Assembly: GCA_016176335.1 (NCBI GenBank)
Contig: JACOXI010000005.1
Location: 63,391 to 127,390, forward strand
Direction of reading: 5' to 3'
Source: Candidatus Daviesbacteria bacterium
GTDB taxonomy: Bacteria > Patescibacteriota > Microgenomatia > Daviesbacterales > UBA10151
Length of the DNA: 64,000 bases
Under the pieces are notes generated by a model. It saw nothing but the letters and a program-made list of their open reading frames with translations, had not been told where the DNA came from and searched no databases. Numbering within the stretch: position 1 is the stretch's first letter; each line of letters begins with the position of its first letter. A program made the position numbers and the translations under genes. Of the stretch, positions 13,435 through 62,084 are shown piece after piece.

Positions 13435-14139
13435 ATGATTAATTACCTTGAGCCACATCTGGCTAACACCACAGCAAAATTAAATTGGCTTAGGGCTTCT
13501 GTTTTAGGAGCCAACGATGGCATTGTTTCTATTGCTGGTTTAGTATTAGGTATTGCTGGTGCAACAGATTCACCGGGCATTATTTTTACAGCAGGGATGA
13601 CAGGAATTATTGCTGGGGCAATTTCTATGGCAGCCGGTGAATATGTCTCTGTTTCAAGCTCAAGGGATACGGAAAGAGCTCTAATTAAAAAAGAACGTAA
13701 GGAACTTAGGGAACACCCGGAGCAAGAACTGGAGGAACTGATATTAATCTATGAGAGAAAAGGACTCAGCAAAAAAACAGCCACAACTGTGGCAAATGAA
13801 TTAACTAAACATGATCCGATTGCTGCCCATTTAGATGCAGAGTTAAATCTTGATCCTGAAAATCTGACAAATCCCTGGCATGCAGCATTTGCTTCAGCTT
13901 CATCTTTTCTAATAGGCGGTATTATACCTCTGATGACTATTTCTACGCCCCCTCTTCCACTTCGAATCCCTGCTACTGTTATATCTGTAGTACTGGCTTT
14001 AGCAATAACAGGATCAATCAGTGCTAGCATAGGCGGTGCAAGTATCCCAAGAGCTACAGCAAGAGTTGTTTTGGGAGGAATATTCGCTATGGCCATTACC
14101 TATAGCATAGGAAGGTTCTTTGGAATATCAGGCATATGA
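13435..14139 (+). CDS. VIT1/CCC1-family membrane iron/manganese transporter
   Basis: 234 aa. LRASVLGANDGIVSIAGLVLG motif and TM-rich C-terminus. Confidence 0.65.
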   Translation: MINYLEPHLANTTAKLNWLRASVLGANDGIVSIAGLVLGIAGATDSPGIIFTAGMTGIIAGAISMAAGEYVSVSSSRDTERALIKKERKELREHPEQELEELILIYERKGLSKKTATTVANELTKHDPIAAHLDAELNLDPENLTNPWHAAFASASSFLIGGIIPLMTISTPPLPLRIPATVISVVLALAITGSISASIGGASIPRATARVVLGGIFAMAITYSIGRFFGISGI

Positions 14140-16217
14140 TAGATCAAATTATCACTTACTCCTTTTACTTACTCTTTTTCCTAACCCCCCTTTTTTGGAC
14201 TTCTCAAAACTTTGAGCTTTTTGAATACAACAAAATGATTTTGACTTATGGAATCACAGTAATCATTGTCGGAGCCTGGATCCTTAAAGCCATAAACGAC
14301 AAACGATTAACGATCAAACGTACACCTTTAGATATACCGCTTCTTTTATTCCTAACAGCCAACATTTTATCAACTATTTTCTCCATAGACCCCCACACCT
14401 CCATTTGGGGCTATTATTCCCGCTCAAATGGCGGGCTTTTATCCATAATATCCTACCTATTATTATATTGGGCTTTTGTTTCCAATATAACTTCCGATCA
14501 AATTAAACCATTACTAAAAATTGGGCTTGTATCAGGTTTAATAATTTCCATCTGGGGTATTTCGGAACATTTTGGAGTCTCTCCCTCCTGTGTAATTTTA
14601 CGGGGACAATTTAGTGCCAATTGTTGGGTGCAAGATGTCCAAGCCAGGGTGTTTGCCACCTTGGGTCAGCCAAACTGGCTGGCAGCATATCTTGCCATGC
14701 TCATTTTCCCGGCCCTTTATTTCTTTTTGACTGCCACCACAAGATTAACCCGTACTACTTACTACTTACTACTTACTACTTACTACCTGGCCTTCACTTT
14801 TACCTATTCCAGAGGACCAACTTTGGGGCTAATTGGGGGATTTGTAGTATTTCTGTCGTTCTGGCTTGTCCAGAATCGATTCTGGAGTCGTCGCTCCGCT
14901 CCTCCCCAGAATGACACTGCTAAATTATTTGGTATTATCATTACTTCCTTCCTGGCTATTAACCTTCTCTTTGGCTCTGCCCTAACCAGCTTTAGATTAG
15001 TTTCCAAATTTGCTCCGCCTCCAAGACCTACCCTAACACTGCCTACCACCTCTGCTACCCAACTTGAGACCGGAGGCACGGAATCCGGAAAAATCAGATT
15101 AATTGTTTGGCAGGGAGCTTTGGATATTTTTAAAAACTATCCGATATTCGGCTCAGGAGTTGAGACTTTTGCTTATTCCTACTATCAATATCGTCCCTCC
15201 TCACATAACTTGACCAGTGAATGGGACTTTTTATACAACAAAGCTCATAATGAGTACTTAAATTACCTAGCAACAACTGGTTTAACAGGCTTTATTATAT
15301 ACATGGGAATAATTTTTACTTTTGTTTTTTGGAGTCTTTCAAGAATTTTAAATTTTAAATTTTCAATTTTCAATAAAAATTTTAAATTAGAAATTAAAAA
15401 TTACAAAAACGATAATTCAATAAATCTTTTATTAATAGCTCTGCTTGCATCCTATATCAGCTATCTTGTCTACAACTTTTTCTTATTCTCTGTTGTCATT
15501 ATTGCCATCTTTTTCTACCTCTTTCCCGCTCTTGCTTTTGTGGCAACAGAATCAACTAAGGTTTTTAAATGGCCTAAAAAACTATACCCTATACCCTATA
15601 CTCTATACTCTATACTTTACCGCCGTCCCATCTATACCAAAATGGTCAAAGGTATCGTGATTTTTTCTGTGCTCTTCTTTCTATATTCTATTTTCCAGCT
15701 CTGGTATGCCGACACGATTTTCAACCGTGGGCAACAAGCATCCGAGGCAGGCAATCCGGGCAGAGCTTATAATCTTTTAACAACCGCCTCGCAGTTAAAT
15801 CAGGCCGAGCCTTTTTATAGATCAGAGCTGGCTTTTTCAGCAGCTCAAGCTGCAGCTGCTTTAAAAGATACTGACGCCTCTCTTTCTGCCAAGCTTTCGG
15901 ATCAGGCCATATCTGATATGGACAGAGTTTTGCAGCAAAGTCCCCACAATGTTTCATATCTTCGAACCGCAATAAGAACCTATTTTGAGCTGGGTAGTAC
16001 TGACAAAGTCTATATAGAGAAAGCGTTGGAAGCTTTGGATAAAGCAATTTATTTGGCTCCCACCGATCCAAAACTGTATTATAACAAGGCATTAATTTTA
16101 CAATCCATGGATAAACACGATGAGGCCATAAAAGCCTTTGGGAAAGCTTTGGAATTAAAGCCTAATTATATTCAGGTTGAGGAACAACTTAAGGAAACAA
16201 CTGGATCTGCAAAATAG
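14136..16217 (+). CDS. O-antigen ligase/polymerase-like membrane protein with C-terminal TPR repeats
   Basis: 693 aa polytopic protein. Wzy_C-like segment (YNKAHNEYLNYLATTGLTGFIIY). C-terminal TPR (AIKAFGKALELKPNY). Contains three in-frame heptamer-repeat tracts. Confidence 0.6.
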   Translation: MIDQIITYSFYLLFFLTPLFWTSQNFELFEYNKMILTYGITVIIVGAWILKAINDKRLTIKRTPLDIPLLLFLTANILSTIFSIDPHTSIWGYYSRSNGGLLSIISYLLLYWAFVSNITSDQIKPLLKIGLVSGLIISIWGISEHFGVSPSCVILRGQFSANCWVQDVQARVFATLGQPNWLAAYLAMLIFPALYFFLTATTRLTRTTYYLLLTTYYLAFTFTYSRGPTLGLIGGFVVFLSFWLVQNRFWSRRSAPPQNDTAKLFGIIITSFLAINLLFGSALTSFRLVSKFAPPPRPTLTLPTTSATQLETGGTESGKIRLIVWQGALDIFKNYPIFGSGVETFAYSYYQYRPSSHNLTSEWDFLYNKAHNEYLNYLATTGLTGFIIYMGIIFTFVFWSLSRILNFKFSIFNKNFKLEIKNYKNDNSINLLLIALLASYISYLVYNFFLFSVVIIAIFFYLFPALAFVATESTKVFKWPKKLYPIPYTLYSILYRRPIYTKMVKGIVIFSVLFFLYSIFQLWYADTIFNRGQQASEAGNPGRAYNLLTTASQLNQAEPFYRSELAFSAAQAAAALKDTDASLSAKLSDQAISDMDRVLQQSPHNVSYLRTAIRTYFELGSTDKVYIEKALEALDKAIYLAPTDPKLYYNKALILQSMDKHDEAIKAFGKALELKPNYIQVEEQLKETTGSAK

Positions 16218-17064: not shown

Positions 17065-17790
17065 ATGTCAAAAGTCAAAATTATTTTTTTAGGAACTCCG
17101 CTTTTTGTTAAACTTATTAAAGATACACTGGCTAAGCATTTTACATTGGTAAAGTCACTAAAGGAGGCTGATTTAGCAGTGGTGGCGGCTTATGGCAGGA
17201 TTTTAACAAAAGATGAACTGGATATCCCTCAATATGGTTTTTTAAACATCCACCCCTCCCTTTTACCAAAATACCGGGGGCCGTCCCCAATTCAACAAGC
17301 CATCTTAAATGGAGACAAAGTATCCGGCATCACCATCATTAAAATGGATGAAGATGTGGACCATGGACCGATAATTTATCAAGAAAAATTAGAGCTTTCC
17401 GATAATGATAACTTTGATACTTTGAGTAAAAAGATGTTTCAGCTTGCAGCTCAAGTTTCACCCAAAATTATTGAAGATTTTGTATCCGGAAGAATACAAC
17501 CTACTCCACAAAATCATGATCAGGCCACCTACTGTGTTCGTCTCACCAGAGAAAGTGGGTATTTTCCTATTGATAATCCCCTCTCTGCTGAAAAATTGGA
17601 CAGGATGATTCGCGCCTATCATCCTTGGCCAGGGGTGTGGACTGTATGGGAAATCAAAAATCAAAAATCAAAAATCAAAAAGATTGTAAAGTTTCTCCCT
17701 GATGGAAGGATCCAAATGGAAGGGAAAAAAGCTATGCCGATGCGGGATTTTCTAAACGGCTACCCAGATTTTCCTTTAAAGGAACTTTAA
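17065..17790 (+). CDS. fmt: methionyl-tRNA formyltransferase (short form)
   Basis: Motifs HPSLLPKYRGPSPIQ and formyltransferase core. ATG at 17065 gives MSKVKIIFLGTP. Contains an in-frame (aatcaaa)4 tract. Confidence 0.8.
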   Translation: MSKVKIIFLGTPLFVKLIKDTLAKHFTLVKSLKEADLAVVAAYGRILTKDELDIPQYGFLNIHPSLLPKYRGPSPIQQAILNGDKVSGITIIKMDEDVDHGPIIYQEKLELSDNDNFDTLSKKMFQLAAQVSPKIIEDFVSGRIQPTPQNHDQATYCVRLTRESGYFPIDNPLSAEKLDRMIRAYHPWPGVWTVWEIKNQKSKIKKIVKFLPDGRIQMEGKKAMPMRDFLNGYPDFPLKEL

Positions 17791-31359: not shown

Positions 31360-31554
31360 ATGAAAAAAGGAGTTAGTTTTATTAAGGAAGTTTACGAAGA
31401 GTTAGTAAAAGTGGCCTGGCCCACCAGAGAACAAACTATCCGCTACACTGTTTTGGTAATCATTGTCACTTTGGTTGTGGGAGTTTTTTTGGGAGGATTT
31501 GATTATATTTTGACAGCAATAACAGCATTTATACTAGAACACTATGGACGATGA
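31360..31554 (+). CDS. secE: preprotein translocase subunit SecE
   Basis: 64 aa. VKVAWPTREQT motif followed by a single TM. Immediately upstream of nusG. Confidence 0.7.
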   Translation: MKKGVSFIKEVYEELVKVAWPTREQTIRYTVLVIIVTLVVGVFLGGFDYILTAITAFILEHYGR

Positions 31555-32308
31555 TTTAAAACTCAAAACTCAAATGTCAAATGTCAAAGCTGGAGAGGAT
31601 CAGACAGCAAAATCTGAACCAGTTAATGATATAAGCGAAGGGAGACTGCCTCCGAACGCAGCGAGCCCTAGAGTCGCCGAAGGCGACCGTACCCGAGGCG
31701 AAGCCGAAGGCGAGCCGCAGGGCGTAAGTACCGAAGGTACAGTTGGCGAGCAAGAGAGCGGGGCGGTCGACCGATCAGGCAATCCTAACGCCAAATGGTA
31801 TGTTGTTCATACTTATTCCGGTCATGAAAACAAAGTGGCGCACACTTTAAAGCAGCGGATTGAATCCGAACATTTGGAAGAGAAAATTTTAGATGTTTTG
31901 GTGCCTATGCAGGATAAAATTGAAATAAAAGGCGGCAAAAAAGTAAGCATTAAAGAAAAAATCTTCCCCGGCTATATTTTGGTAAAAATGGTTTTGGAAG
32001 ATAGTTCCTGGCTGGCTGTCAGAACAACTCAAGGTGTCACCTCCTTTGTGGGTATGGGTAATAAACCCACCCCGATCTCCGATGCGGAGGTGGCCACCAT
32101 AGTCAAATTTACCCAAGAGGAGGCTCCTGTTTATAAGCAGGTTTTCTCTGTTTCGGATACTATCAAAATTGTGGACGGGCCTTTTGCAGATTTTATTGGT
32201 AAAGTGGATAATGTGGATGAGGAAAAAGGCAAGGTTAAGGTTTTGGTATCAATATTCGGGCGTGAAACACCAGTGGAGTTGGATTTTCTGCAGGTGCAGA
32301 AGATATGA
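31544..32308 (+). CDS. nusG: transcription termination/antitermination factor NusG with ~75-aa repeat-derived N-terminal extension
   Basis: NGN start KWYVVHTYSGHENKV and KOW C-terminus. No in-frame start codon near the NGN domain, so the extension (heptamer tract plus GC-rich element) appears to be translated. Confidence 0.85.
   Translation: MDDDLKLKTQMSNVKAGEDQTAKSEPVNDISEGRLPPNAASPRVAEGDRTRGEAEGEPQGVSTEGTVGEQESGAVDRSGNPNAKWYVVHTYSGHENKVAHTLKQRIESEHLEEKILDVLVPMQDKIEIKGGKKVSIKEKIFPGYILVKMVLEDSSWLAVRTTQGVTSFVGMGNKPTPISDAEVATIVKFTQEEAPVYKQVFSVSDTIKIVDGPFADFIGKVDNVDEEKGKVKVLVSIFGRETPVELDFLQVQKI
31640..31775. repeat. GC-rich element copy inside the nusG N-terminal extension
   Basis: gggagactgcctccgaacgcagcgagccctagagtcgccgaaggcgac...gttggcgagcaagagagcggggcggtcgaccgatcagg. 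Palindrome gtcgccgaaggcgac. Read in a different frame than the PBP1A copy. Confidence 0.7.
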
Positions 32309-32805: not shown

Positions 32806-33723
32806 ATGGGCAAGACAAAAGTAGCCATCATTGATGATTCAGCGCAAGAAGAGAATAGAGAATCAAGAATAAAGAATAAAGCCTCTAAGAAAAGGGCTAA
32901 AGCGACCGAAGTGAAGTCTGATGCAGCTTCTCGACTGTTTGAGCCAGGCGAGGATGGCCAAAAGGCTCAAGCTTTGACGAGCGTGACGCCATCCGAGCCG
33001 ATTCCGCCAAAGGCGGAAGGCGAGTTGGAGAAGCAAATTCAGACGAACGAGAGAGTACAACCTAAAAAACCTCAAAAACCAGGCAAAGCTAAGCCCCGCT
33101 CCAAGAAATACCAAGAGGTCGTAAAAGATTTGGATAGAACTAAATCCTACCCTTTAGGTGAGGCTATAGAACTTAGTAAAAAACTGTCCTATTCTAAATT
33201 CACAGGTACACTTGAAGCACATATCAATACCACTCAAACAGGAATCCGTGGTTTAGCCTCCCTTCCCTATTCTTCAGGTAAAAAATTACGCATCCTGGTC
33301 TTTGGAAAAGGTGCCAAAGACGCAGGTGCAGATCTGGTGGGTGATGATTCCACCATTGAGGCTATCTCCCAGGGCAAAATTGATTTTGACCTTCTGATAA
33401 GCACTCCTGAATGGATGCCAAAGCTTGCCAAAGTGGCAAGGGTTTTGGGACCTAAGGGGCTCATGCCCAATCCCAAAAATGGCACCATCACAGACGACCT
33501 CAAAAAAGCAGTGGAAGGATTTCAAGCCGGAAAAACAGAATACAAAACAGAGGCCAAAGCAGCAGTAATCCACCTTGGGCTGGGAAAGTTGAATCAACCT
33601 ACCGAGGAGTTATCTGCCAATGTTCAAACTTTGCTTCAAACTTTAGGCAAAACCAGAGTTAAAAAAGTCACTCTTTCCCCCACCATGGGACCATCAGTTA
33701 AAGTTGATCTAGCTTCCATGTAA
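32806..33723 (+). CDS. rplA: 50S ribosomal protein L1 with ~90-aa N-terminal extension
   Basis: L1 core starts near KKYQEVVK...EAIELSKK. N-terminal Lys/Glu-rich extension carries a GC-rich stretch. Confidence 0.85.
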   Translation: MGKTKVAIIDDSAQEENRESRIKNKASKKRAKATEVKSDAASRLFEPGEDGQKAQALTSVTPSEPIPPKAEGELEKQIQTNERVQPKKPQKPGKAKPRSKKYQEVVKDLDRTKSYPLGEAIELSKKLSYSKFTGTLEAHINTTQTGIRGLASLPYSSGKKLRILVFGKGAKDAGADLVGDDSTIEAISQGKIDFDLLISTPEWMPKLAKVARVLGPKGLMPNPKNGTITDDLKKAVEGFQAGKTEYKTEAKAAVIHLGLGKLNQPTEELSANVQTLLQTLGKTRVKKVTLSPTMGPSVKVDLASM

Positions 33724-41801: not shown

Positions 41802-42588
41802 TACTTCTTACTATTCTCCCAGCTCGTACTCGCAAGGTTGCACTCCAGGTTATTACTGGAATGGCAGTAAATGTGTGGCAGGTAGCAATGAAGGTTCAGG
41901 GTGGTCAGATACAGCTGCCAGATCCCAATCCTGGTGTCAACCTCCCTCAAACGGCTGTGGCTCTAATTCTTATTGGGATTATGGTAGCTGTTACTGCAGC
42001 AGCTCAACCACTTATTATGGAGGTAGTGGTCCCTCACCCAGCAATCAATGCCAGGGTCTAAGCTGCGGTGGAGGCGCATGGTTAGATTACTCAACCTGTA
42101 GTTGTAAGTATTCAGGTGGTTCTGGAACTAGTTCTACAGGATCTACCATCACTTGTTATCCTCCTTCCGCAGGTTGTCCAGGCGGCTGGTATGATTATGG
42201 CACTTGCAGCTGCAAAACCAGCTACTCCGGCACAAGTTCCGGCTCAGGAGGAACAACTACCACCGGTTCTTGTCCTTCAGGCTCCCATTGGATGAGTGAT
42301 AATGGTGGTTACTGCATGTCTGATACCGGAGGAGGCACATCCTCTTCCGGCTCTACCACCACTTCATCCGGAGGATCAACATCAAGCGGATCCTGTCCTT
42401 CGGGATATCATTGGATGAGCGATAATGGTGGCTGGTGCATGCAAGACGGCGGAGGCTCGACCTCAAGTAGCGGCTCAACAACTACTACCAGTGAACCGGC
42501 TCCGACCACTACCACCACTACCACATCTGAACCGGCCCCCACACCTACCAGTTCCGAACCTGCGCCAACACCTGCTCCCAGCCCTTAG
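41752..42588 (+). CDS. C-terminal continuation of the giant protein in the +1 frame (frameshift near 41745..41760)
   Basis: The frame holding ORF 41875..42588 encodes TGYYWDGRGC...CTPGYYWNGSKC, then CPSGSHWMSDNGGYCM and CPSGYHWMSDNGGWCM repeats identical in type to the upstream ORF. Ends in a T/P-rich tail. Confidence 0.55.
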   Translation, partial: TGYYWDGRGCIRTSPTDTSYYSPSSYSQGCTPGYYWNGSKCVAGSNEGSGWSDTAARSQSWCQPPSNGCGSNSYWDYGSCYCSSSTTYYGGSGPSPSNQCQGLSCGGGAWLDYSTCSCKYSGGSGTSSTGSTITCYPPSAGCPGGWYDYGTCSCKTSYSGTSSGSGGTTTTGSCPSGSHWMSDNGGYCMSDTGGGTSSSGSTTTSSGGSTSSGSCPSGYHWMSDNGGWCMQDGGGSTSSSGSTTTTSEPAPTTTTTTTSEPAPTPTSSEPAPTPAPSP

Positions 42589-42801
42589 TCCTTAATGTCA
42601 GTCAATACGACACATTGACAAACATGACATCATAAGTTAAAATAATTTGGCTTAAGACAGTGAGTGGAGCGAAGCGACATCCTGAGCATAGTCGAAGGAT
42701 GCTTTACACCATAAATCTCACCGAGGCAGTTTAGTATATCGTAAGATTGAATATCGTATATCGGAAAACCGATAAACAATAAACGATTAACGATAAACCA
42801 A

Positions 42802-42826
42802 AAACGCCTCAGAAAGGCGTTTTTTA
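42802..42826 (+). terminator. rho-independent terminator-like hairpin plus T-run abutting the rplJ start codon
   Basis: aaacgcc-tcagaaa-ggcgttttttaa, then ATG of rplJ 2 nt later. A-run on the 5' side makes it bidirectional in form. Confidence 0.5.
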
Positions 42827-43364: not shown

Positions 43365-43440
43365 TATATCGTAAATCGGTTATCGTATATCGGAAACACA
43401 CAAACCATAAACGATAAACCATAGACGATCAAACAACCAT

Positions 43441-44088
43441 ATGGCAGATGATCAACAAAAACAAGATCAACAATCAGAACAGCCTAAAACTGAAGAATCA
43501 ACAGAGGGAGCGAAGGCTGCCGCAGATTCTCAACTGTCAGAGGCAGGCGAGATCAGCAGCGAGAGCACAAGTTCTGACGTGCACGAGCCTGGTCGAGCTG
43601 GTGGCGAACCGCCAGCTGGCGGTGAGCCAGCCGAGTTGGAGAATCAAGGCCAGCCGAGCGACCAAAGCGCACCAGCCAAGAAAAAACCTGCTCCTAAACC
43701 AGTTTCAGCAAACTTAGAAAAGATAATTGAACAAATTGAAAAATTATCAGTTCTAGAACTGGCTGATTTAGTACATGCTTTAGAGGATAGATTTGGGGTT
43801 TCAGCATCCGCACCAGTTATGGCAGCAGGACCAGCAGCCGCCTCGCCTTCGGCGGGCGAGCCAACGGAGGAAAAAACTACTTTCAATGTGGTTTTAACAG
43901 CAGCAGGTGCCAATAAAATTGCAGTGATAAAAGCTGTCAGGGAATTAGTCCAGACTTTAGGGTTAAAAGAGGCAAAAGATTTGGTGGAGTCAGCTCCAAA
44001 ACCTGTTTTGGAATCAGTTAATAAGCAGACTGCTGAAGAGGCAAAACAGAAGCTTACGGCAGCAGGAGCGACAGTAGAACTTCAATAA
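43441..44088 (+). CDS. rplL: 50S ribosomal protein L7/L12 with ~90-aa GC-rich N-terminal extension
   Basis: L12 core from [28 protein letters not shown] to ...AAGATVELQ. Acidic/Pro-rich N-terminal extension. Confidence 0.85.
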
Positions 44089-45238: not shown

Positions 45239-46030
45239 TCAACCCTTCAGCTGAGCTCTCAAAAGCAAATACAGGTATTGTATTAAAGCCAGCTGCCTTT
45301 TGATCCTCCATGGTTGAAGACACAACCTGAACAACCACTCAAATCCTAAATGTTGTATCCAAATTGGAGCTCTGGGAACCTTGCCGCTTATTATATCAAA
45401 TGCTCCCCCCACCCCCATAGCCACTTTAACAGGAATTTTGGGCAAATTTTTAGCAATCCATTTTTCTTGTTTTGGAGGACCAAGCGCCACAAACAAAATA
45501 CCTGTTTGTGGCAGATTTAAGATATAAGATTTAGGATTTATGATTTTCTCTCTATTCTTAAATCTTAAATCATAAATCATATCTCCATCATCATTAAAAA
45601 TCCCAACTTCACTGGCAAACGAGACTTTAAGTTTTGGATATTTCCTCTTCAAGCACTCAGCCGTTTTTTCTGCTATCTTCCCTCTCCCTCCTAAAAAGCC
45701 TGTTGTAAAACCCTTTTCTTCGGCCATCTTTACCAACCCTTCCATTACATCTATACCAGGGGTAGTCATAACTATATCACCAGTAAGTTTCAACCCTACC
45801 CCATCAGGAACTGCTAAATCCGCGTTATTTAATATCCTTTTAAATACAAGGTCTTTTTGGGCCGCGACGATAAACTCCGGATTAGGAGTTACTATGTAAT
45901 GTTTACCGGGATTCCAAATCCAATGCTCTACTATCGTAAGCGCTTCATTAAGACTTACATCATCAATTTTGATTCCCAGAACATCTACTTTCATAAATTC
46001 TCCAATACCCCAAGTGTTTCTTTTGCGCAT
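45239..46030 (-). CDS. tagA: WecB/TagA/CpsF-family glycosyltransferase
   Basis: 263 aa. Family motifs (IVTPNPEFIV, DLAVPDGVG). Contains an in-frame heptamer-repeat insert (YDLRFKNREKIINPKSYILNL). Confidence 0.75.
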   Translation of the reverse strand: MRKRNTWGIGEFMKVDVLGIKIDDVSLNEALTIVEHWIWNPGKHYIVTPNPEFIVAAQKDLVFKRILNNADLAVPDGVGLKLTGDIVMTTPGIDVMEGLVKMAEEKGFTTGFLGGRGKIAEKTAECLKRKYPKLKVSFASEVGIFNDDGDMIYDLRFKNREKIINPKSYILNLPQTGILFVALGPPKQEKWIAKNLPKIPVKVAMGVGGAFDIISGKVPRAPIWIQHLGFEWLFRLCLQPWRIKRQLALIQYLYLLLRAQLKG

Positions 46031-47160
46031 TTCTCCCAGCTAAATCTTTCTATATTATCAAGTCCCGCCTTAATAAGCTTAATTCTTAATTCTTGATTCT
46101 TTATTCTTATCATTCCCTTTACTATATCATCTACACTATATGGATTAACATAAACTGCTCCTTTACCAGCCACCTCCGGCATGGATGAAAGATTAGAAGT
46201 GATCACCGGACAACCACAAGCCTGGGCCTCCAAGATTGGCAAACCAAAACCTTCAAAAAGCGAAGGAAAAAGTAATGCTATTGCTCCGAAGTACAGTGCA
46301 GATAAATCTTTATCAGGCACATACCCCAAAAATTTTACCCTGTCCTCTATCCCTAATTTCTTTGGCAACTGATAAATTTCATCAGACAGCCAGCCTTTAG
46401 AACCTGCTATAACTAATTTCAGTGATTTATGATTTATGATTAAAGATTTATGATTTTTTATTCGTAAATCAGTATTCTTAAATCGTAAATCTTGCTCATA
46501 AATTAATTTTTCTTCAGATATAAACTTACTGAATGCAATAATTAAACGCTCGAGATTTTTACGAGGCTGTACTGTCCCCACAAACAAAAAATAACTATGA
46601 TACTTTAAATTATATTTCTTAATACTTTGAGTGTCTTTGAACTTTTCTTTATCATATCCTTCATAACTCACGCTGATTTTATCCGGTTTAATTCCCACCC
46701 TTTTGATAAGATCATCCTTAGTGGCCCGGGACACAGCAATCAAGGCAGTTGCGCTTTTTAGCTGGGAGCGGGTCATGAAATTTAAATACAACCTTTGTTT
46801 TAGCTGGTGCATGGCCGGAAGATATTCTGATCCCAAATCATGAACAGTCACCAAAGTCTTAAGTCCTGGCTTTCTAATAACCGGCAAGGTATGGGCAGGT
46901 ACAAATAACACATCAATATTGTCTTTGAAGGTCTGCAAAGCCAACCCCCCTTGAGTCCATAAAAATTTAAAATTTAAAGTTGAAAATTGAAAATTGTCAG
47001 GGAAATCTTTTTTAACAAAATTAACACCTGGCCTTAAATAAACTTGGTAAGTATTTTTCCTATCAATCCTTGCCAAAGCCTTAAGCAGTTGATAAGAATA
47101 ATTCTCTGTACCTGTTTTCTCTTTAATAAAGGCCCTGGAAGCATCAAATCCAATAATCAT
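45991..47160 (-). CDS. GT4-family glycosyltransferase
   Basis: 389 aa. EGFGLPILEAQACGCPVITS motif. Contains an in-frame heptamer-repeat insert (DLRFKNTDLRIKNHKSLIINHKSL). Confidence 0.8.
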   Translation of the reverse strand: MIIGFDASRAFIKEKTGTENYSYQLLKALARIDRKNTYQVYLRPGVNFVKKDFPDNFQFSTLNFKFLWTQGGLALQTFKDNIDVLFVPAHTLPVIRKPGLKTLVTVHDLGSEYLPAMHQLKQRLYLNFMTRSQLKSATALIAVSRATKDDLIKRVGIKPDKISVSYEGYDKEKFKDTQSIKKYNLKYHSYFLFVGTVQPRKNLERLIIAFSKFISEEKLIYEQDLRFKNTDLRIKNHKSLIINHKSLKLVIAGSKGWLSDEIYQLPKKLGIEDRVKFLGYVPDKDLSALYFGAIALLFPSLFEGFGLPILEAQACGCPVITSNLSSMPEVAGKGAVYVNPYSVDDIVKGMIRIKNQELRIKLIKAGLDNIERFSWEKCAKETLGVLENL

Positions 47161-54585: not shown

Positions 54586-56201
54586 ATCCTTTCTGGTGCC
54601 GAAACTCCCAAAAGTTTTAAAGTATTTGCTAAAGTGATTTTGCAGGATTTAACCAAAGCAAGCCTTGCTTTCACTAATCCTGAAGTTTCTGCAGATAGAA
54701 CCGGACAGGTTTCATAAAACTTATGGAAAAAGTCAGCTAGAGATATGGCATACTCTGTTAGCTGATGAACTTGGAGATTAATAGCTAATTCTGACACTAA
54801 ATCAGGAAAATATAAAAGATGTTTTATCAAATTAAGCTCATATTCGGTCTGTAATTGTCCAAAATCCACATTTTGGAATTTGGAATTTGTGATTTGAGAT
54901 TTGAGCAATATATTACTCATCCTGGCATGAGCATACTGAACATAGAAAACCGGATTCTTGCTTGATTGTTCTTTTACAAGCTCAAGATCAAAATCCATGT
55001 GAGTTTGAGGGGCAAACCGCAGAAGATAAAATCTGAAAGCATCCACCCCTACCTCATCCAACACCTCTCTGGCCGTAATAAAATTACCAGCTCTTTTACT
55101 CATTTTAACGATATCAGAACCCCTCTTTACTCGAACATACTGATACAAAATTACTTTTAATCTTTTGGGGTCAAACCCTAAAGCAGAAGCTGCAGCTTGT
55201 AATCTTGACACATGACCATGATGGTTACTCCCAAATACATCAATAATTGGATCTGCTCCAGATTCAAATTTGATTTTGTGATAAACAATGTCCGCAGTAA
55301 AATATGTATATCCTCCATCGGATTTTTGAATAACTGTCTCACGATCTTTTAAAAACTCATCTTTGGGTGCCAGCCACAAAGCACCCTCTTTTTCCTTTAA
55401 TACTCCTGCCTTTTTAAGTTGTGCCAAAACTTGGGCAGCCTCTTTTCTCAAATCGGATTCATGTACAACAAGATCAAATTTAATTCCCATTGAGTGACAG
55501 TCTGCCAAAATTTCCTGATGCAAAAGAGCAACTGCCATCATGCCTGTTTCCTCATCACTCTTTCCTTCCATATCAGCACCCAAATTTTTTACCAGATCAT
55601 CTATATACCCGCCTTTGTATTGTTTTTCCTCCGGCAAATCTTTGTGGTATTTTGCCCTGATAGTTGCCCCCAAAGCCTTAATTTGTTCACCAACATCATT
55701 ATTAAGAAATTCCCTAATCACCTCATACCCTTGAGATAATAAAACATTGGCAATCACATCACCTAAAGGCCCGCCTCGGGCATTACCCATATGCAAGGGA
55801 CCGGTGGGGTTGGCGGAAACATATTCCACTCTTGCTTTCTTATCTTCTCCCAAACTAGAGCTACCAAAGTTCTTGTCTTTTTCTAAGATTTCTTTTAAAT
55901 CTTGGGCTAATTTTTCAGCTTTTACAAAAAAATTTATAAAACCGCTACCGGCAATTTTAATTTCAGAGAAATTATCCTGAGCGGAGTCGAAGGACTTCAA
56001 CTTTTCAATAATTTCATTAGCAATTTCTGTTGGAGACTGCTTATTGGAAACTCCTTCCAGTTTAGCAAGCTGCAAAGCCAAATTCGTAGTATAATCTCCA
56101 AATTGGGGATTTTTAGGAATAGATAAAACTATATCAATGGCTAGAAAGCCTAAATCCCCAATTACCTTTTTTAAATCAGCTAAAATTTGATCCTTCACCA
56201 T
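54582..56201 (-). CDS. argS: arginyl-tRNA synthetase
   Basis: 539 aa. Class I motifs (SANPTGPLHMGNARGG, KMSKRAGN). Confidence 0.9.
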   Translation of the reverse strand: MVKDQILADLKKVIGDLGFLAIDIVLSIPKNPQFGDYTTNLALQLAKLEGVSNKQSPTEIANEIIEKLKSFDSAQDNFSEIKIAGSGFINFFVKAEKLAQDLKEILEKDKNFGSSSLGEDKKARVEYVSANPTGPLHMGNARGGPLGDVIANVLLSQGYEVIREFLNNDVGEQIKALGATIRAKYHKDLPEEKQYKGGYIDDLVKNLGADMEGKSDEETGMMAVALLHQEILADCHSMGIKFDLVVHESDLRKEAAQVLAQLKKAGVLKEKEGALWLAPKDEFLKDRETVIQKSDGGYTYFTADIVYHKIKFESGADPIIDVFGSNHHGHVSRLQAAASALGFDPKRLKVILYQYVRVKRGSDIVKMSKRAGNFITAREVLDEVGVDAFRFYLLRFAPQTHMDFDLELVKEQSSKNPVFYVQYAHARMSNILLKSQITNSKFQNVDFGQLQTEYELNLIKHLLYFPDLVSELAINLQVHQLTEYAISLADFFHKFYETCPVLSAETSGLVKARLALVKSCKITLANTLKLLGVSAPERM

Positions 56202-56340
56202 AAGTTAATAATAGCATATCTCAAATGTCAAAACTCAAATGTCAAATCTGAATCTTAAAACTTAAAACTAGACTAAAACAGTTTTGAGATTTAAGTTTTA
56301 GTTTTGAGTTTTGCGATTTGCGTTTTGAGTTAACATTAGC
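56202..56340. repeat. palindromic composite intergenic element built from degenerate heptamer repeats (tcaaatg arm / cattttga arm)
   Basis: Left arm tctcaaatgtcaaaactcaaatgtcaaatctgaatcttaaaacttaaaac, centre tagactaaaacag, right arm ttttgagatttaagttttagttttgagttttgcgatttgcgttttgag. The arms are reverse complements of each other. Confidence 0.8.

Positions 56341-60791: not shown

Positions 60792-62084
<1,293 letters not shown>

What the first reader, a model, noticed from the sequence alone, without database searches (positions are those of the whole stretch)
14752..15618. Frame-shifting heptanucleotide microsatellites inside an O-antigen-ligase-like surface gene: candidate phase-variation switch
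The (ttactac) tract of about 5 copies at 14752..14788 encodes TYYLLLTTYYL. The (ctatacc/ctatact) tract of about 5 copies at 15582..15618 encodes YPIPYTLYSILY. Both lie within the polytopic O-antigen ligase/polymerase-like gene, and a further ctataccx3 tract sits at 61314..61335 in the atp-operon first gene. Slippage by one 7-nt unit would shift the reading frame. Contingency loci in surface-polysaccharide genes are the classic setting for phase variation, although 5 copies is on the short side.
Basis: partly seen in the sequence, partly recalled or inferred. Interest (0 to 1): 0.6.

Follow-up and report, generated by a model that had tools for sequence, protein, structure and literature searches.

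The report
Frame-locked heptanucleotide repeats in Daviesbacteria genes
The 7-base repeats are real and far beyond chance, but they belong to a lineage-wide class of short repeats at fixed, tolerant spots in proteins (most densely in this Wzy-like membrane protein), and no genome examined shows them switching the gene off.

Summary
Observation confirmed. TACTACT x4.9 lies at 14753-14786 and CTATACY x5 at 15582-15616, inside a 693-aa Wzy_C+TPR gene of a Candidatus Daviesbacteria (CPR) genome. CTATACC x3.4 lies at 61312-61335.

Period-7 tandem runs are about 25-fold over chance in the window. They number 134 against 1 in 1.3 Mb from 80 related species. No other period is enriched.

The Wzy-like gene carries about 7 arrays per 10 kb, against about 0.4 in other genes and 2.6 in non-coding DNA. 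The arrays sit at five positionally conserved hotspots. Arrays also occur in the housekeeping genes fmt, argS and a DHODH-like gene.

At the tract-1 site, orthologues carry same-phase arrays whose units differ by 1-2 substitutions copied into every unit. Within these hand-picked unit classes, synonymous codons are 92% identical inside the tract and 49% in the flanks.

All 120 arrays in 80 orthologous genes keep the frame, with at most 5.3 copies. No one-unit variant was found. The only strain-level length change is an in-frame 3-unit (21-nt) deletion. The benchmark neuO has 3-53 copies and 66% OFF genomes.

Verdict: these are slippage-active, frame-locked microsatellites in permissive segments. 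A dedicated ON/OFF switch is not supported, and low-rate switching cannot be excluded without reads.

The parts
14136..16217 (+). Wzy_C-family polytopic membrane protein with C-terminal TPR domain (693 aa). It is the host gene of four heptamer arrays.
   Evidence: ORF. Pfam Wzy_C scores 66.8 bits, with TPR_1/2/8 hits. A 100% identical NCBI protein is named 'O-antigen ligase family protein [Candidatus Daviesbacteria bacterium]'. About 12 hydrophobic segments.
14294..14320 (+). Hotspot H0 (aa ~50-60, K/R-rich loop). A weak, decayed period-7 array (AAACGAC x3.7, 75% matches).
   Evidence: Arrays occur at this site in 16 of 80 orthologues. A strain-level 21-nt (3-unit) deletion occurs at this site in another species.
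14753..14786 (+). Tract 1 / hotspot H1: perfect (TACTACT) x4.9 encoding TTYYLLLTTYY. It lies inside a fixed-length predicted helix just upstream of the AFTFTYSRGP motif.
   Evidence: No indels in 28 orthologues. Arrays are present here in 43 of 80 orthologues. Units are in the same phase and differ by substitutions present in all copies. Codon identity is 92% inside the tract and 49% in the flanks. Helix 203-225 comes from a low-confidence AF2 model.
14854..14916 (+). Palindromic cassette in the variable loop (aa ~240-261, FWLVQNRFWSRRSAPPQND). It has an 18-nt perfect palindrome at 14869-14886, flanked by 11-nt inverted repeats.
   Evidence: Single copy in the window. An exact 20-mer occurs at the same site in L001, L003 and L013. 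The identical peptide occurs in orthologues that are about 70% identical overall.
15344..15407 (+). Hotspot H2: two overlapping AT-rich period-7 arrays (AATTTTA x6.6, TAAAAAT x4.9) encoding RILNFKFSIFNKNFKLEIKNYK, a K-rich loop of variable length.
   Evidence: Arrays are present here in 29 of 80 orthologues. The region varies in length across orthologues.
15582..15616 (+). Tract 2 / hotspot H3: (CTATACC/CTATACT) x5 encoding [12 protein letters not shown]. It lies in a K/R-rich, variable-length loop between hydrophobic segments.
   Evidence: Orthologues carry 30-33-nt arrays of other units at the same site: CTATACG, GCTTATC, ACTTCTC, TTCCATC, CATTCTA and others. Arrays are present here in 18 of 80 orthologues.
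17651..17681 (+). Perfect (AAATCAA) x4.4 inside methionyl-tRNA formyltransferase. It encodes IKNQKSKIK and is an ~8-aa insertion relative to most orthologues.
   Evidence: The tblastn alignment shows WN--------GKIVKF in most species. 17 arrays occur in 63 fmt orthologues. The fmt identity of this ORF rests on Formyl_trans_N annotation of the syntenic gene.
61304..61335 (+). (CCTATAC) x4.6 with a perfect core at 61312-61335, in the signal-peptide-like N-terminus (TIPYTLYP) of ORF 61266-62084.
   Evidence: Only a sub-threshold ATP-synt_C hit at aa 206-269. Translation.
45513..46996 (-). Six imperfect period-7 arrays (45513-45546, 45556-45581, 46078-46109, 46423-46456, 46462-46491, 46962-46996) in a WecG/TagA-type and a GT4 glycosyltransferase gene.
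   Evidence: TRF. Pfam Glyco_tran_WecG and Glycos_transf_1/Glyco_transf_4.
54872..54905 (-). Two adjoining period-7 arrays (TTTGGAA, ATTTGAG) inside arginyl-tRNA synthetase.
   Evidence: Pfam tRNA-synt_1d/DALR_1.

Best explanation
The two tracts are 'frame-locked' heptanucleotide microsatellites. They are instances of a Daviesbacteria-wide excess of 7-nt tandem arrays produced by replication slippage or misalignment with a 7-nt step.

Outside this gene, arrays are about six times denser in non-coding DNA than in coding DNA. Inside genes they are seen only in segments where the peptide is free to vary, such as connecting loops and poorly constrained helix ends. I infer that elsewhere in genes they are removed by selection.

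A net change of one or two units destroys the frame, so only multiples of three units (21 nt, 7 aa) or length-neutral changes are seen. I infer that this traps the array at about 4-5 copies.

The units stay homogeneous by a conversion-like process between neighbouring units. Candidates are a transient one-unit misalignment followed by realignment, or slip-out/slip-back cycles. The whole segment is occasionally replaced by another array class.

The net effect is rapid rewriting of a short peptide cassette with a 7-aa period, in an otherwise conserved Wzy_C-TPR envelope protein. It is not a regulated ON/OFF switch. One-unit slips must arise at some rate and would give null alleles, but these are not seen as majority alleles anywhere.

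Shown: the excess, the hotspots, frame conservation, the same-phase unit substitutions, DNA-level conservation, one recent 3-unit slip, and hypervariability between close relatives. Inferred: the slippage/conversion mechanism, the trapping argument, and the lack of an adaptive switching role.
For: 1. Period-7-specific excess.
- The window has 27 runs against 1.15 expected.
- The 80 loci have 134 against 1.
- TRF finds 451 period-7 arrays against 31 in shuffles.

2. Arrays are not gene-specific.
- fmt has 17 arrays in 63 orthologues, and the DHODH-like gene has 7 in 40 at one site.
- Arrays also occur in argS, GT4 and WecG genes and in operon leaders in the window.
- Outside the Wzy-like gene, density is 0.42 per 10 kb in coding DNA and 2.55 in non-coding DNA. 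This is the pattern expected under selection against arrays in genes.

3. The Wzy-like gene has five discrete hotspots, at variable loops or helix ends.

4. Frame and length.
- All 120 arrays in the 80 orthologous genes leave the ORF intact.
- Perfect runs in coding DNA never exceed 37 nt, while non-coding ones reach 55 and 62 nt at contig ends.
- Run lengths have a second mode at 30-32 nt, which equals about 10 nt plus 21.

5. Concerted evolution.
- 14 of 17 long tract-1 arrays share one phase. Their units are CTACTTA, TTACTTA, TTACTTG and CTACATA.
- Codon identity is 92% inside the tract and 49% in the flanks.
- The core is 94-100% identical at nucleotide level within a class, against 70-85% in flanks.

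6. Recent activity. L088 and L089/L090 are identical over 2.1 kb except for a 21-nt, 3-unit deletion in an array.

7. Fast turnover. In L006/L008 (92.7% identity over 13 kb), identity falls to about 40% exactly at tract 1 without any length change.

8. Literature. Heptanucleotide SSRs are the most over-represented long SSR class in many bacteria, and a polymerase-footprint explanation has been proposed. This is Mrazek 2007 as summarised in PMC4692102 and PMC4679880.
Against: - Array density at the hotspots is far above that of non-coding DNA. H1 is occupied in 43 of 80 species. Pure tolerance does not predict this. It needs long persistence or inheritance of arrays (argued, not proven), or selection for the arrays.
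- Envelope-polysaccharide genes (Wzy-like, GT4, WecG) hold about 8 of 22 window arrays in about 6% of the sequence. That is the classic contingency-locus signature.
- The conversion-like homogenisation is inferred, not observed.
- Array classes are shared at 94-100% nucleotide identity by species whose flanks are saturated, and they are incongruent with nearest neighbours. Lateral exchange or DNA-level selection could explain this instead.
- The class comparisons were made on loci chosen for having similar tracts, which is an ascertainment bias.
- No read-level data were available.
Confidence: 0.5

Rival explanations
1. Low-rate contingency locus. The perfect 5-copy arrays gain or lose one unit at perhaps 1e-6 to 1e-4 per generation. 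This produces a standing minority of Wzy-null cells with an altered surface glycan (bet-hedging against phage or host). Revertants restore the frame, and the repeated OFF/ON cycles are what homogenise the array.
For: - The unit is not a multiple of 3, the arrays are perfect, and a one-unit slip is the expected dominant mutation.
- The DNA-level perfection of the arrays is maintained over deep time.
- Arrays are enriched about 18-fold in this envelope gene and are present in two glycosyltransferase genes.
- A recent slippage event was observed at one array.
- Coding heptanucleotide switches exist: neuO and an hmw1A ORF tract.
Against: - No OFF allele due to an array in 76 complete orthologues or about 60 strain-level sequences. 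The three broken alleles examined on long contigs (L085, L086, L087) have other causes; seven other truncated candidates were not checked at the DNA level.
- The neuO benchmark shows 65.6% OFF genomes and 3-53 copies, while here there are at most 5.3 copies and no copy-number spread.
- Several arrays per gene at conserved sites is unlike known switches.
- The same arrays occur in fmt, argS and the DHODH-like gene.
- Tract 1 has a fixed length in all orthologues.
- The ranking of loci by tblastn score may under-sample frameshifted genes.
Confidence: 0.25
2. Exchangeable cassettes. The hotspot segments are short mosaic blocks that move between Daviesbacteria lineages by homologous recombination through the conserved flanks, or as tiny mobile inserts. 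The repeat structure is a property of the cassettes rather than of in-situ slippage.
For: - Discrete array classes are 94-100% identical in nucleotide sequence across species whose flanking synonymous sites are saturated. One class is an imperfect array with the same imperfections in six species.
- The closest pairs L006/L008 and L021/L064 carry different classes.
- P0012 and P0152 (at least 90% identical) differ in the whole tract-2 block plus 10 upstream residues.
- The neighbouring loop carries palindromic cassettes shared across species.
Against: - It does not explain the period-7 specificity or the genome-wide excess, including in non-coding DNA.
- It does not explain why same-phase units differ by substitutions present in every copy.
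- It does not explain the in-situ 3-unit deletion.
- It is compatible with the best explanation and is more a complement than an alternative.
Confidence: 0.15
3. Functional nucleic-acid element. The heptad-periodic DNA or mRNA is itself selected, for example as a binding array for a single-strand-binding or cold-shock-type protein, or as a translational pause element.
For: - Nucleotide conservation exceeds protein constraint.
- Arrays also lie just upstream of rplJ/rplL, nusG, rplA and the atp region.
- The sense strand is G-poor, at 5-7% G.
- CspB binds heptamer repeats according to PMC4679880.
Against: - No shared unit or consensus. There are dozens of unrelated units.
- Different units occupy the same site in different species.
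- The G-poor composition is also expected from the need to be stop-free and tolerable in all three frames.
- No Rfam family matches.
Confidence: 0.07
4. Coincidence or protein-level constraint. A conserved hydrophobic peptide merely happens to be encoded repetitively.
For: The tract-1 peptide (TYYLLLTTYYL-like) is shared by many orthologues and its length is invariant.
Against: - A 27-match perfect period-7 run is never seen in shuffles.
- Synonymous positions are 92% conserved inside the tract and 49% outside.
- Orthologues carry perfect arrays of different units at the same site.
- Only period 7 is enriched.
Confidence: 0.02

Closest known systems
neuO (E. coli K1 capsule O-acetyltransferase): coding-region heptanucleotide (AAGACTC)n phase variation
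   Same: A 7-nt unit inside the coding sequence of a surface-polysaccharide gene. All three frames of the unit are translated. The protein is full length only when the unit count keeps the frame (PMC13001214).
   Different: neuO has 3-53 copies, 65.6% of 64 complete genomes are OFF, and there is measurable within-culture heterogeneity. Here there are at most 5.3 copies, no OFF allele caused by an array, several arrays per gene at internal conserved sites, and the same arrays in housekeeping genes.
Genome-wide over-representation of heptanucleotide SSRs in bacteria (Mrazek et al. 2007). Examples are cyanobacterial STRR, Xanthomonas/Nostoc GGGAATC-type repeats and Beggiatoaceae TAACTGA repeats.
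   Same: A period-7-specific excess of short tandem arrays (2-6 copies) across a genome. Length and sequence vary between relatives at the same site. Slippage linked to a polymerase footprint has been proposed (PMC4692102, PMC4679880).
   Different: The known cases are mostly intergenic and use one or a few unit sequences. Here 79% of arrays are inside ORFs, the units are highly diverse, and arrays sit in frame at positionally conserved protein hotspots and show concerted evolution. I found no report for Patescibacteria/CPR.
H. influenzae heptanucleotide SSRs (hmw1A/hmw2A promoters, AACAACC in a TonB-dependent receptor gene, AATTTTG x14 inside hmw1A)
   Same: Heptanucleotide arrays associated with surface proteins. 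Coding-region copies can frameshift (PMC2651432; PMC8262952).
   Different: Those arrays have 13-38 copies in promoters, or 8-14 copies in ORFs with truncated alleles actually observed. No such variation is seen here.
Borg tandem repeats that create new protein segments (PMC9879509, seen)
   Same: Perfect, rapidly evolving tandem nucleotide repeats inside ORFs that write new, poorly constrained peptide segments.
   Different: I did not read the paper beyond its abstract. From my own knowledge, Borg coding repeats have unit lengths divisible by three, many copies, and occur in archaeal extrachromosomal elements. Here the unit is 7 nt, frame is kept only by total length, and copy number is capped.

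Membership tests
SSR contingency locus (phase variation by slipped-strand mispairing) | Tandem repeat with a unit not divisible by 3, inside the ORF (or promoter) of the regulated gene | tested here: met
   Perfect or near-perfect 7-nt arrays at 14753-14786 and 15582-15616 inside ORF 14136-16217.
SSR contingency locus (phase variation by slipped-strand mispairing) | Repeat copy number differs among strains or closely related genomes | tested here: not met
   No change of one or two units in about 60 sequences from 20 clusters at 90% identity. Copy number is 3-5.3 in all 120 arrays. The only length variant is an in-frame 3-unit deletion at another hotspot. No second strain of the window's own species was available.
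SSR contingency locus (phase variation by slipped-strand mispairing) | Both ON and OFF (frameshifted at the repeat) alleles occur in nature | tested here: not met
   75 of 76 complete orthologues are intact, and the exception (L074) is broken away from any array. The split alleles L085 and L086 are due to a 31-34-nt deletion and to in-frame stops.
SSR contingency locus (phase variation by slipped-strand mispairing) | Within-population heterogeneity of tract length in reads or colonies | not testable with these tools
   No read data. The metagenome scan gave two identical decayed tracts.
SSR contingency locus (phase variation by slipped-strand mispairing) | Repeats concentrated in surface or host-interaction genes rather than housekeeping genes | tested here: inconclusive
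   The Wzy-like gene has 7.1 arrays per 10 kb against 0.4 in other genes, and the GT4 and WecG genes carry arrays. However, fmt (3.2 per 10 kb), the DHODH-like gene and argS also carry them.
Wzy_C (O-antigen ligase/polymerase-like) membrane proteins, Pfam PF04932 | Significant match to the Wzy_C profile above the curated threshold | tested here: met
   66.8 bits against a cutoff of 31.7, E=2.5e-18, aa 218-390.
Wzy_C (O-antigen ligase/polymerase-like) membrane proteins, Pfam PF04932 | Polytopic membrane topology with a large loop carrying conserved Arg/His residues | tested here: inconclusive
   About 12 hydrophobic segments. Invariant R297, R321, H357, H371 and E373 lie in the aa 290-380 loop. 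The AF2 model is too poor (pLDDT 54.7) for a fold comparison.
Wzy_C (O-antigen ligase/polymerase-like) membrane proteins, Pfam PF04932 | Ligase or polymerase activity on an undecaprenyl-linked glycan | not testable with these tools
   Biochemical property. The substrate in a CPR bacterium is unknown.
Heptanucleotide long-SSR excess (STRR / GGGAATC / TAACTGA type) | Period-7-specific excess of tandem arrays across the genome | tested here: met
Heptanucleotide long-SSR excess (STRR / GGGAATC / TAACTGA type) | Arrays predominantly intergenic | tested here: not met
   162 of 205 arrays are inside ORFs. Excluding the Wzy-like gene, non-coding density is 6-fold higher than coding density.
Heptanucleotide long-SSR excess (STRR / GGGAATC / TAACTGA type) | One or a few characteristic unit sequences | tested here: not met
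   More than 60 different canonical units, none dominant.

The most novel reading that the evidence does not exclude
Daviesbacteria, and perhaps other CPR lineages, have a replication or repair peculiarity that slips in 7-nt steps. It continuously writes, homogenises and rewrites short heptad-periodic peptide cassettes at fixed permissive sites of proteins. The conserved Wzy_C-TPR envelope protein is the main substrate. The arrays are kept there by second-order selection, because they supply both rapid peptide change and a low-frequency pool of null alleles. This would be a contingency system operating in a short, frame-locked regime not described before.
Probability: 0.2. Interest if true: 0.7.

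Novelty: new variant of a known kind. Interest (0 to 1): 0.5.

Why it matters
If the frame-locked reading is right, it shows how a mutational bias (7-nt slippage) can shape protein evolution in a reduced genome. Short repeats survive inside genes only where the peptide is free and only at lengths that keep the frame. They then evolve in concert and turn over faster than the rest of the gene.

The finding gives a concrete, testable system for the long-standing polymerase-footprint explanation of heptanucleotide SSR excess. The system comprises about 120 arrays at five homologous sites in 80 species.

It also flags a conserved envelope protein of an uncultured CPR phylum whose variable segments may matter for host or phage interactions.

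For annotation, these tracts should not be read as phase-variation switches without read-level evidence.

Tried and rejected
- Exact-protein lookup of the window gene found no contig, so no strain variants of this species were available.
- The one metagenome scan, for TACTACT-type tracts next to the AFTFTY anchor, gave only two identical, decayed, in-frame hits.
- A protein search with the N-terminal 206 aa, aimed at truncated OFF alleles, returned mostly contig-end fragments.
- Three candidates on long contigs were examined at DNA level. L085 has a 31-34-nt deletion upstream of tract 1. L086 has in-frame stop codons. L087 comes from an error-prone assembly with many broken genes. Seven other truncated proteins on contigs of 4.6-12 kb were read only as protein and not resolved.
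- P0131 is a contig end lying at tract 2, and P0130 diverges from L029 at the hairpin-element loop. Neither is a unit slip.
- Twenty protein clusters at 90% identity showed only start-site differences, one 7-aa deletion, one 8-aa deletion and one block replacement.
- The AF2 model of the membrane domain was too poor (pLDDT 54.7) for topology or fold search.
- A search for a common heptamer consensus, as with TAACTGA, found none.
- The idea that polytopic membrane proteins in general tolerate arrays was rejected. Other proteins with four or more TM segments have 0.1 arrays per 10 kb.
- Rfam gave only tRNAs.
- Literature searches found no description of heptanucleotide arrays in CPR/Patescibacteria.
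Full report
**1. What is there**

The window is from a Candidatus Daviesbacteria (Microgenomates, CPR) genome. The ORF 14136..16217(+) encodes a 693-aa protein that is 100% identical to an NCBI 'O-antigen ligase family protein [Candidatus Daviesbacteria bacterium]'. It matches Pfam Wzy_C well above threshold (aa 218-390) and carries C-terminal TPR repeats.

Its neighbours are mreB, a VIT-family gene, def and fmt. mreB and the VIT-family gene were confirmed by Pfam. def and fmt are identified from the conserved deformylase and formyltransferase motifs in their translations and from the Pfam annotation of the syntenic genes in related loci.

- (TACTACT) x4.9, perfect, lies at 14753-14786 and encodes TTYYLLLTTYY.
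- (CTATACC/T) x5 lies at 15582-15616 and encodes [12 protein letters not shown].
- (CTATACC) x3.4 lies at 61312-61335.

The third tract is in the signal-peptide-like N-terminus of ORF 61266-62084. That ORF has only a sub-threshold ATP-synt_C match, so its assignment to the atp operon is unverified.

**2. More than chance, and not local**

Perfect period-7 runs of at least 15 nt number 27 in the window, against 1.15 in shuffles. Periods 2-15 other than 7 give 0-4 each.

I fetched 80 orthologous loci from different species, totalling 1.3 Mb. In these, period-7 runs number 134 against 1, and no other period stands out. TRF finds 451 period-7 arrays against 31 in shuffled sequence.

The excess of heptanucleotide arrays is therefore a property of the lineage. 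Heptanucleotide SSRs are known to be the most over-represented long SSR class in many bacteria, and a polymerase-footprint/slippage explanation has been proposed. This is Mrazek 2007 as summarised in PMC4692102 and PMC4679880. I found no report for CPR bacteria.

**3. Where the arrays sit**

Array density (TRF score at least 40):

| Category | Arrays per 10 kb |
|---|---|
| Wzy-like gene | 7.25 |
| Non-coding DNA | 2.55 |
| Soluble-protein genes | 0.41 |
| Genes with 1-3 TM segments | 0.54 |
| Other polytopic membrane proteins | 0.10 |

By orthogroup, fmt has 17 arrays in 63 genes. A DHODH-like gene has 7 in 40, all at one site. mreB, def and others have none.

In the window, arrays also lie in WecG-type and GT4 glycosyltransferase genes, in argS, at the edge of comEC, and upstream of rplJ/rplL, nusG, rplA and the atp region.

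Within the Wzy-like protein, the 120 arrays fall into five discrete hotspots, given here in window residue numbers.
- About aa 50: 16 of 80 genes.
- About aa 100: 5 genes.
- About aa 200 (tract 1): 43 genes.
- About aa 400-429: 29 genes.
- About aa 470-489 (tract 2): 18 genes.

Tract 1 lies in a fixed-length predicted helix just before the invariant AFTFTYSRGP motif. No indel occurs there in 28 orthologues. The other hotspots are K/R-rich loops of variable length, so by the positive-inside rule they probably face the cytoplasm. That topology is inferred, not shown.

The fmt array is an ~8-aa insertion relative to most orthologues. It sits at a loop that carries other insertions in other species.

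**4. How the arrays evolve**

*Same site, different units.* Orthologues carry perfect 28-37-nt arrays at the same site with different units. At tract 1, 14 of 17 long arrays share one phase relative to the downstream anchor. Their units (CTACTTA, TTACTTA, TTACTTG, CTACATA) differ by one or two substitutions that are present in every copy. This is concerted evolution.

*DNA-level conservation.* I compared six species that share the CTACTTA unit. Codons for conserved residues are identical in 49% of comparisons in the flanks, which is saturation, but in 92% inside the tract. Within each array class the core is 94-100% identical in nucleotides, against 70-85% for the most conserved flanks. These groups were chosen by tract similarity, so the contrast is partly ascertained. 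Saturated flanks still cannot produce identical perfect arrays by chance.

*Fast turnover.* The closest pair of loci, L006 and L008, are 92.7% identical over 13 kb. Identity falls to about 40% exactly at the tract-1 segment without any length change. It also collapses at the variable loop and at the aa 400-429 hotspot. The array classes do not follow nearest-neighbour relationships. Two proteins that are at least 90% identical differ in the whole tract-2 block.

*One recent slip.* L088 and L089/L090 are identical over 2.1 kb except for a 21-nt deletion. It removes exactly three units of the array AATCATA-AATCGTA-AATCTTT-AATCATA-AATCGAA at the aa ~50 hotspot.

**5. Frame and length**

Perfect runs in coding DNA never exceed 37 nt. 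Their lengths have a second mode at 30-32 nt, which is about one unit plus a few bases plus 21 nt. Non-coding arrays reach 55 and 62 nt at contig ends.

All complete orthologous genes are open through their arrays. The single exception, L074, is broken at a place without an array.

Sense-strand array composition is only 5-7% G. This fits the need for every cyclic codon of the unit to be stop-free and tolerable, but it could also reflect strand-specific selection.

**6. Test of the phase-variation reading**

A coding heptanucleotide switch is known. In neuO, 64 complete genomes show 3-53 repeats, and 65.6% are OFF (PMC13001214). H. influenzae heptanucleotide tracts have 8-38 copies, and truncated alleles are observed (PMC2651432).

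The picture here is different.
- No OFF allele caused by an array occurs in 76 complete species-level orthologues.
- No one-unit variant occurs among about 60 strain-level sequences.
- The three truncated or split genes examined on long contigs (L085, L086, L087) have other causes; seven further truncated candidates were read only as protein and not resolved.

There are caveats.
- No second strain of this species and no reads were available.
- Loci were ranked by tblastn score, which may under-sample frameshifted genes.
- A switch that is ON in more than about 96% of consensus sequences would escape this test.

The enrichment in the Wzy-like and glycosyltransferase genes is the one feature that fits a contingency locus. 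It is weakened by two things. Per-hotspot occupancy in fmt (27%) is similar to that of the Wzy-like hotspots (20-54%). Hotspot counts across species are also not independent.

**7. Most likely mechanism**

The arrays arise by replication slippage or misalignment with a 7-nt step, which is a lineage-wide bias. Outside this gene they are about six times denser in non-coding DNA than in coding DNA. Inside genes they are found only in permissive segments. I infer that selection removes them elsewhere in genes.

Changes of one or two units are frameshifts and are purged. What is seen is three-unit steps, as observed once, and length-neutral changes. I infer that the array is therefore trapped at about 4-5 copies.

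A conversion-like exchange between neighbouring units keeps the array homogeneous. Occasional replacement, either in situ or by recombination, swaps array classes.

The result is a fast-evolving peptide cassette in an otherwise conserved protein. The steps shown are the excess, the hotspots, frame conservation, the same-phase unit substitutions, DNA-level conservation, one three-unit slip and hypervariability between close relatives. The steps inferred are the slippage/conversion mechanism, the trapping argument and the absence of an adaptive switch.

Confidence is about 0.5. A low-rate contingency function is at about 0.25, cassette exchange at about 0.15 and a nucleic-acid-level function at about 0.07. 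These are not excluded, and the first two may coexist with the main reading.

**8. Verdict**

The tracts are real, non-random, slippage-active and concentrated in this envelope gene, but there is no evidence that they act as an ON/OFF switch, and comparative data argue against frequent switching.

In kind this is a new variant of known phenomena, namely heptanucleotide SSR excess and coding heptanucleotide repeats. The features that distinguish it:
- The arrays are short, frame-locked and located inside genes.
- They sit at positionally conserved hotspots.
- They evolve in concert.
- They occur in a CPR phylum.

Noticed in passing
window 14854-14916; same site in L001 (~10733), L003 (~10739), L013 (~4587): The variable loop after tract 1 holds a palindromic cassette: an 18-nt perfect palindrome TCCAGAATCGATTCTGGA flanked by 11-nt inverted repeats. 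It encodes FWLVQNRFWSRRSAPPQND. The identical peptide or DNA occurs in orthologues only about 70% identical overall. Other orthologues carry SFPRKRESI or WIPAFAGMT at this place. By my back-translation these look like the two orientations of one hairpin element inserted in frame.
   Followed up: partly
fmt orthologues in L013, L017, L020, L024, L031, L049, L059 (region aligned to window 17690-17720): A second loop of fmt (after ...KFLP) carries in-frame insertions of 10-50 aa in many species, for example ARNATHSVARRHAFGKADGG and STVIPAKAGIQ. They resemble translated hairpin or REP-like elements, which suggests in-frame mini-insertions are common in these genomes.
   Followed up: no
window 31544-31790, 32806-33190, 43441-43720: The ORFs for NusG, ribosomal protein L1 and L7/L12 extend 83, 128 and 92 codons upstream of where their Pfam domains begin. 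Period-7 arrays (31558-31588, 32852-32881, 43366-43434) lie in or next to these extensions. Either the starts are mis-set and the arrays are in 5' leaders, or these proteins have repeat-derived N-terminal extensions.
   Followed up: no
window 42734-42806, 56218-56331, 60892-60921, 61080-61243: Runs of several different degenerate heptamers (for example ATCTCAA, AGTTTTG, TTAGAAA, TTGAGAT) fill intergenic regions upstream of rplJ, downstream of comEC and upstream of the putative atp region. Array 56280-56331 has 7.6 copies.
   Followed up: no
window 61266-62084: A 272-aa ORF with a signal-peptide-like start, a soluble middle part and a C-terminal ~65 aa weakly similar to the ATP synthase c subunit (E=0.0084). 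It may be a fusion, a mis-joined ORF, or a divergent first gene of the atp cluster.
   Followed up: partly
L085 3540-3560; L086 3655-3780; L074 1380-1400: Three Wzy-like genes are disrupted by other means: a 31-34-nt deletion after GQPNW, two in-frame stop codons, and a replaced or shifted TM segment. The gene is therefore occasionally lost or mis-assembled, independently of the arrays.
   Followed up: partly
L004 21651-21712; L054 7885-7939; L083 position 1-60: Two contigs end inside long heptamer arrays (AGTTATT x8.9 and CGCAATA x7.9). A third contig (L083) ends at the tract-2 hotspot of the Wzy-like gene, whether or not inside an array there. Assemblies seem to break at or near these repeats, possibly because of length heterogeneity in the population.
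   Followed up: no
window 42505-42573: A 27-nt tandem repeat (x2.1) and a 9-nt repeat (ACCACTACC x2.2) lie at the 3' end of ORF 41875-42588. This is an in-frame, triplet-compatible repeat, unlike the heptamers.
   Followed up: no
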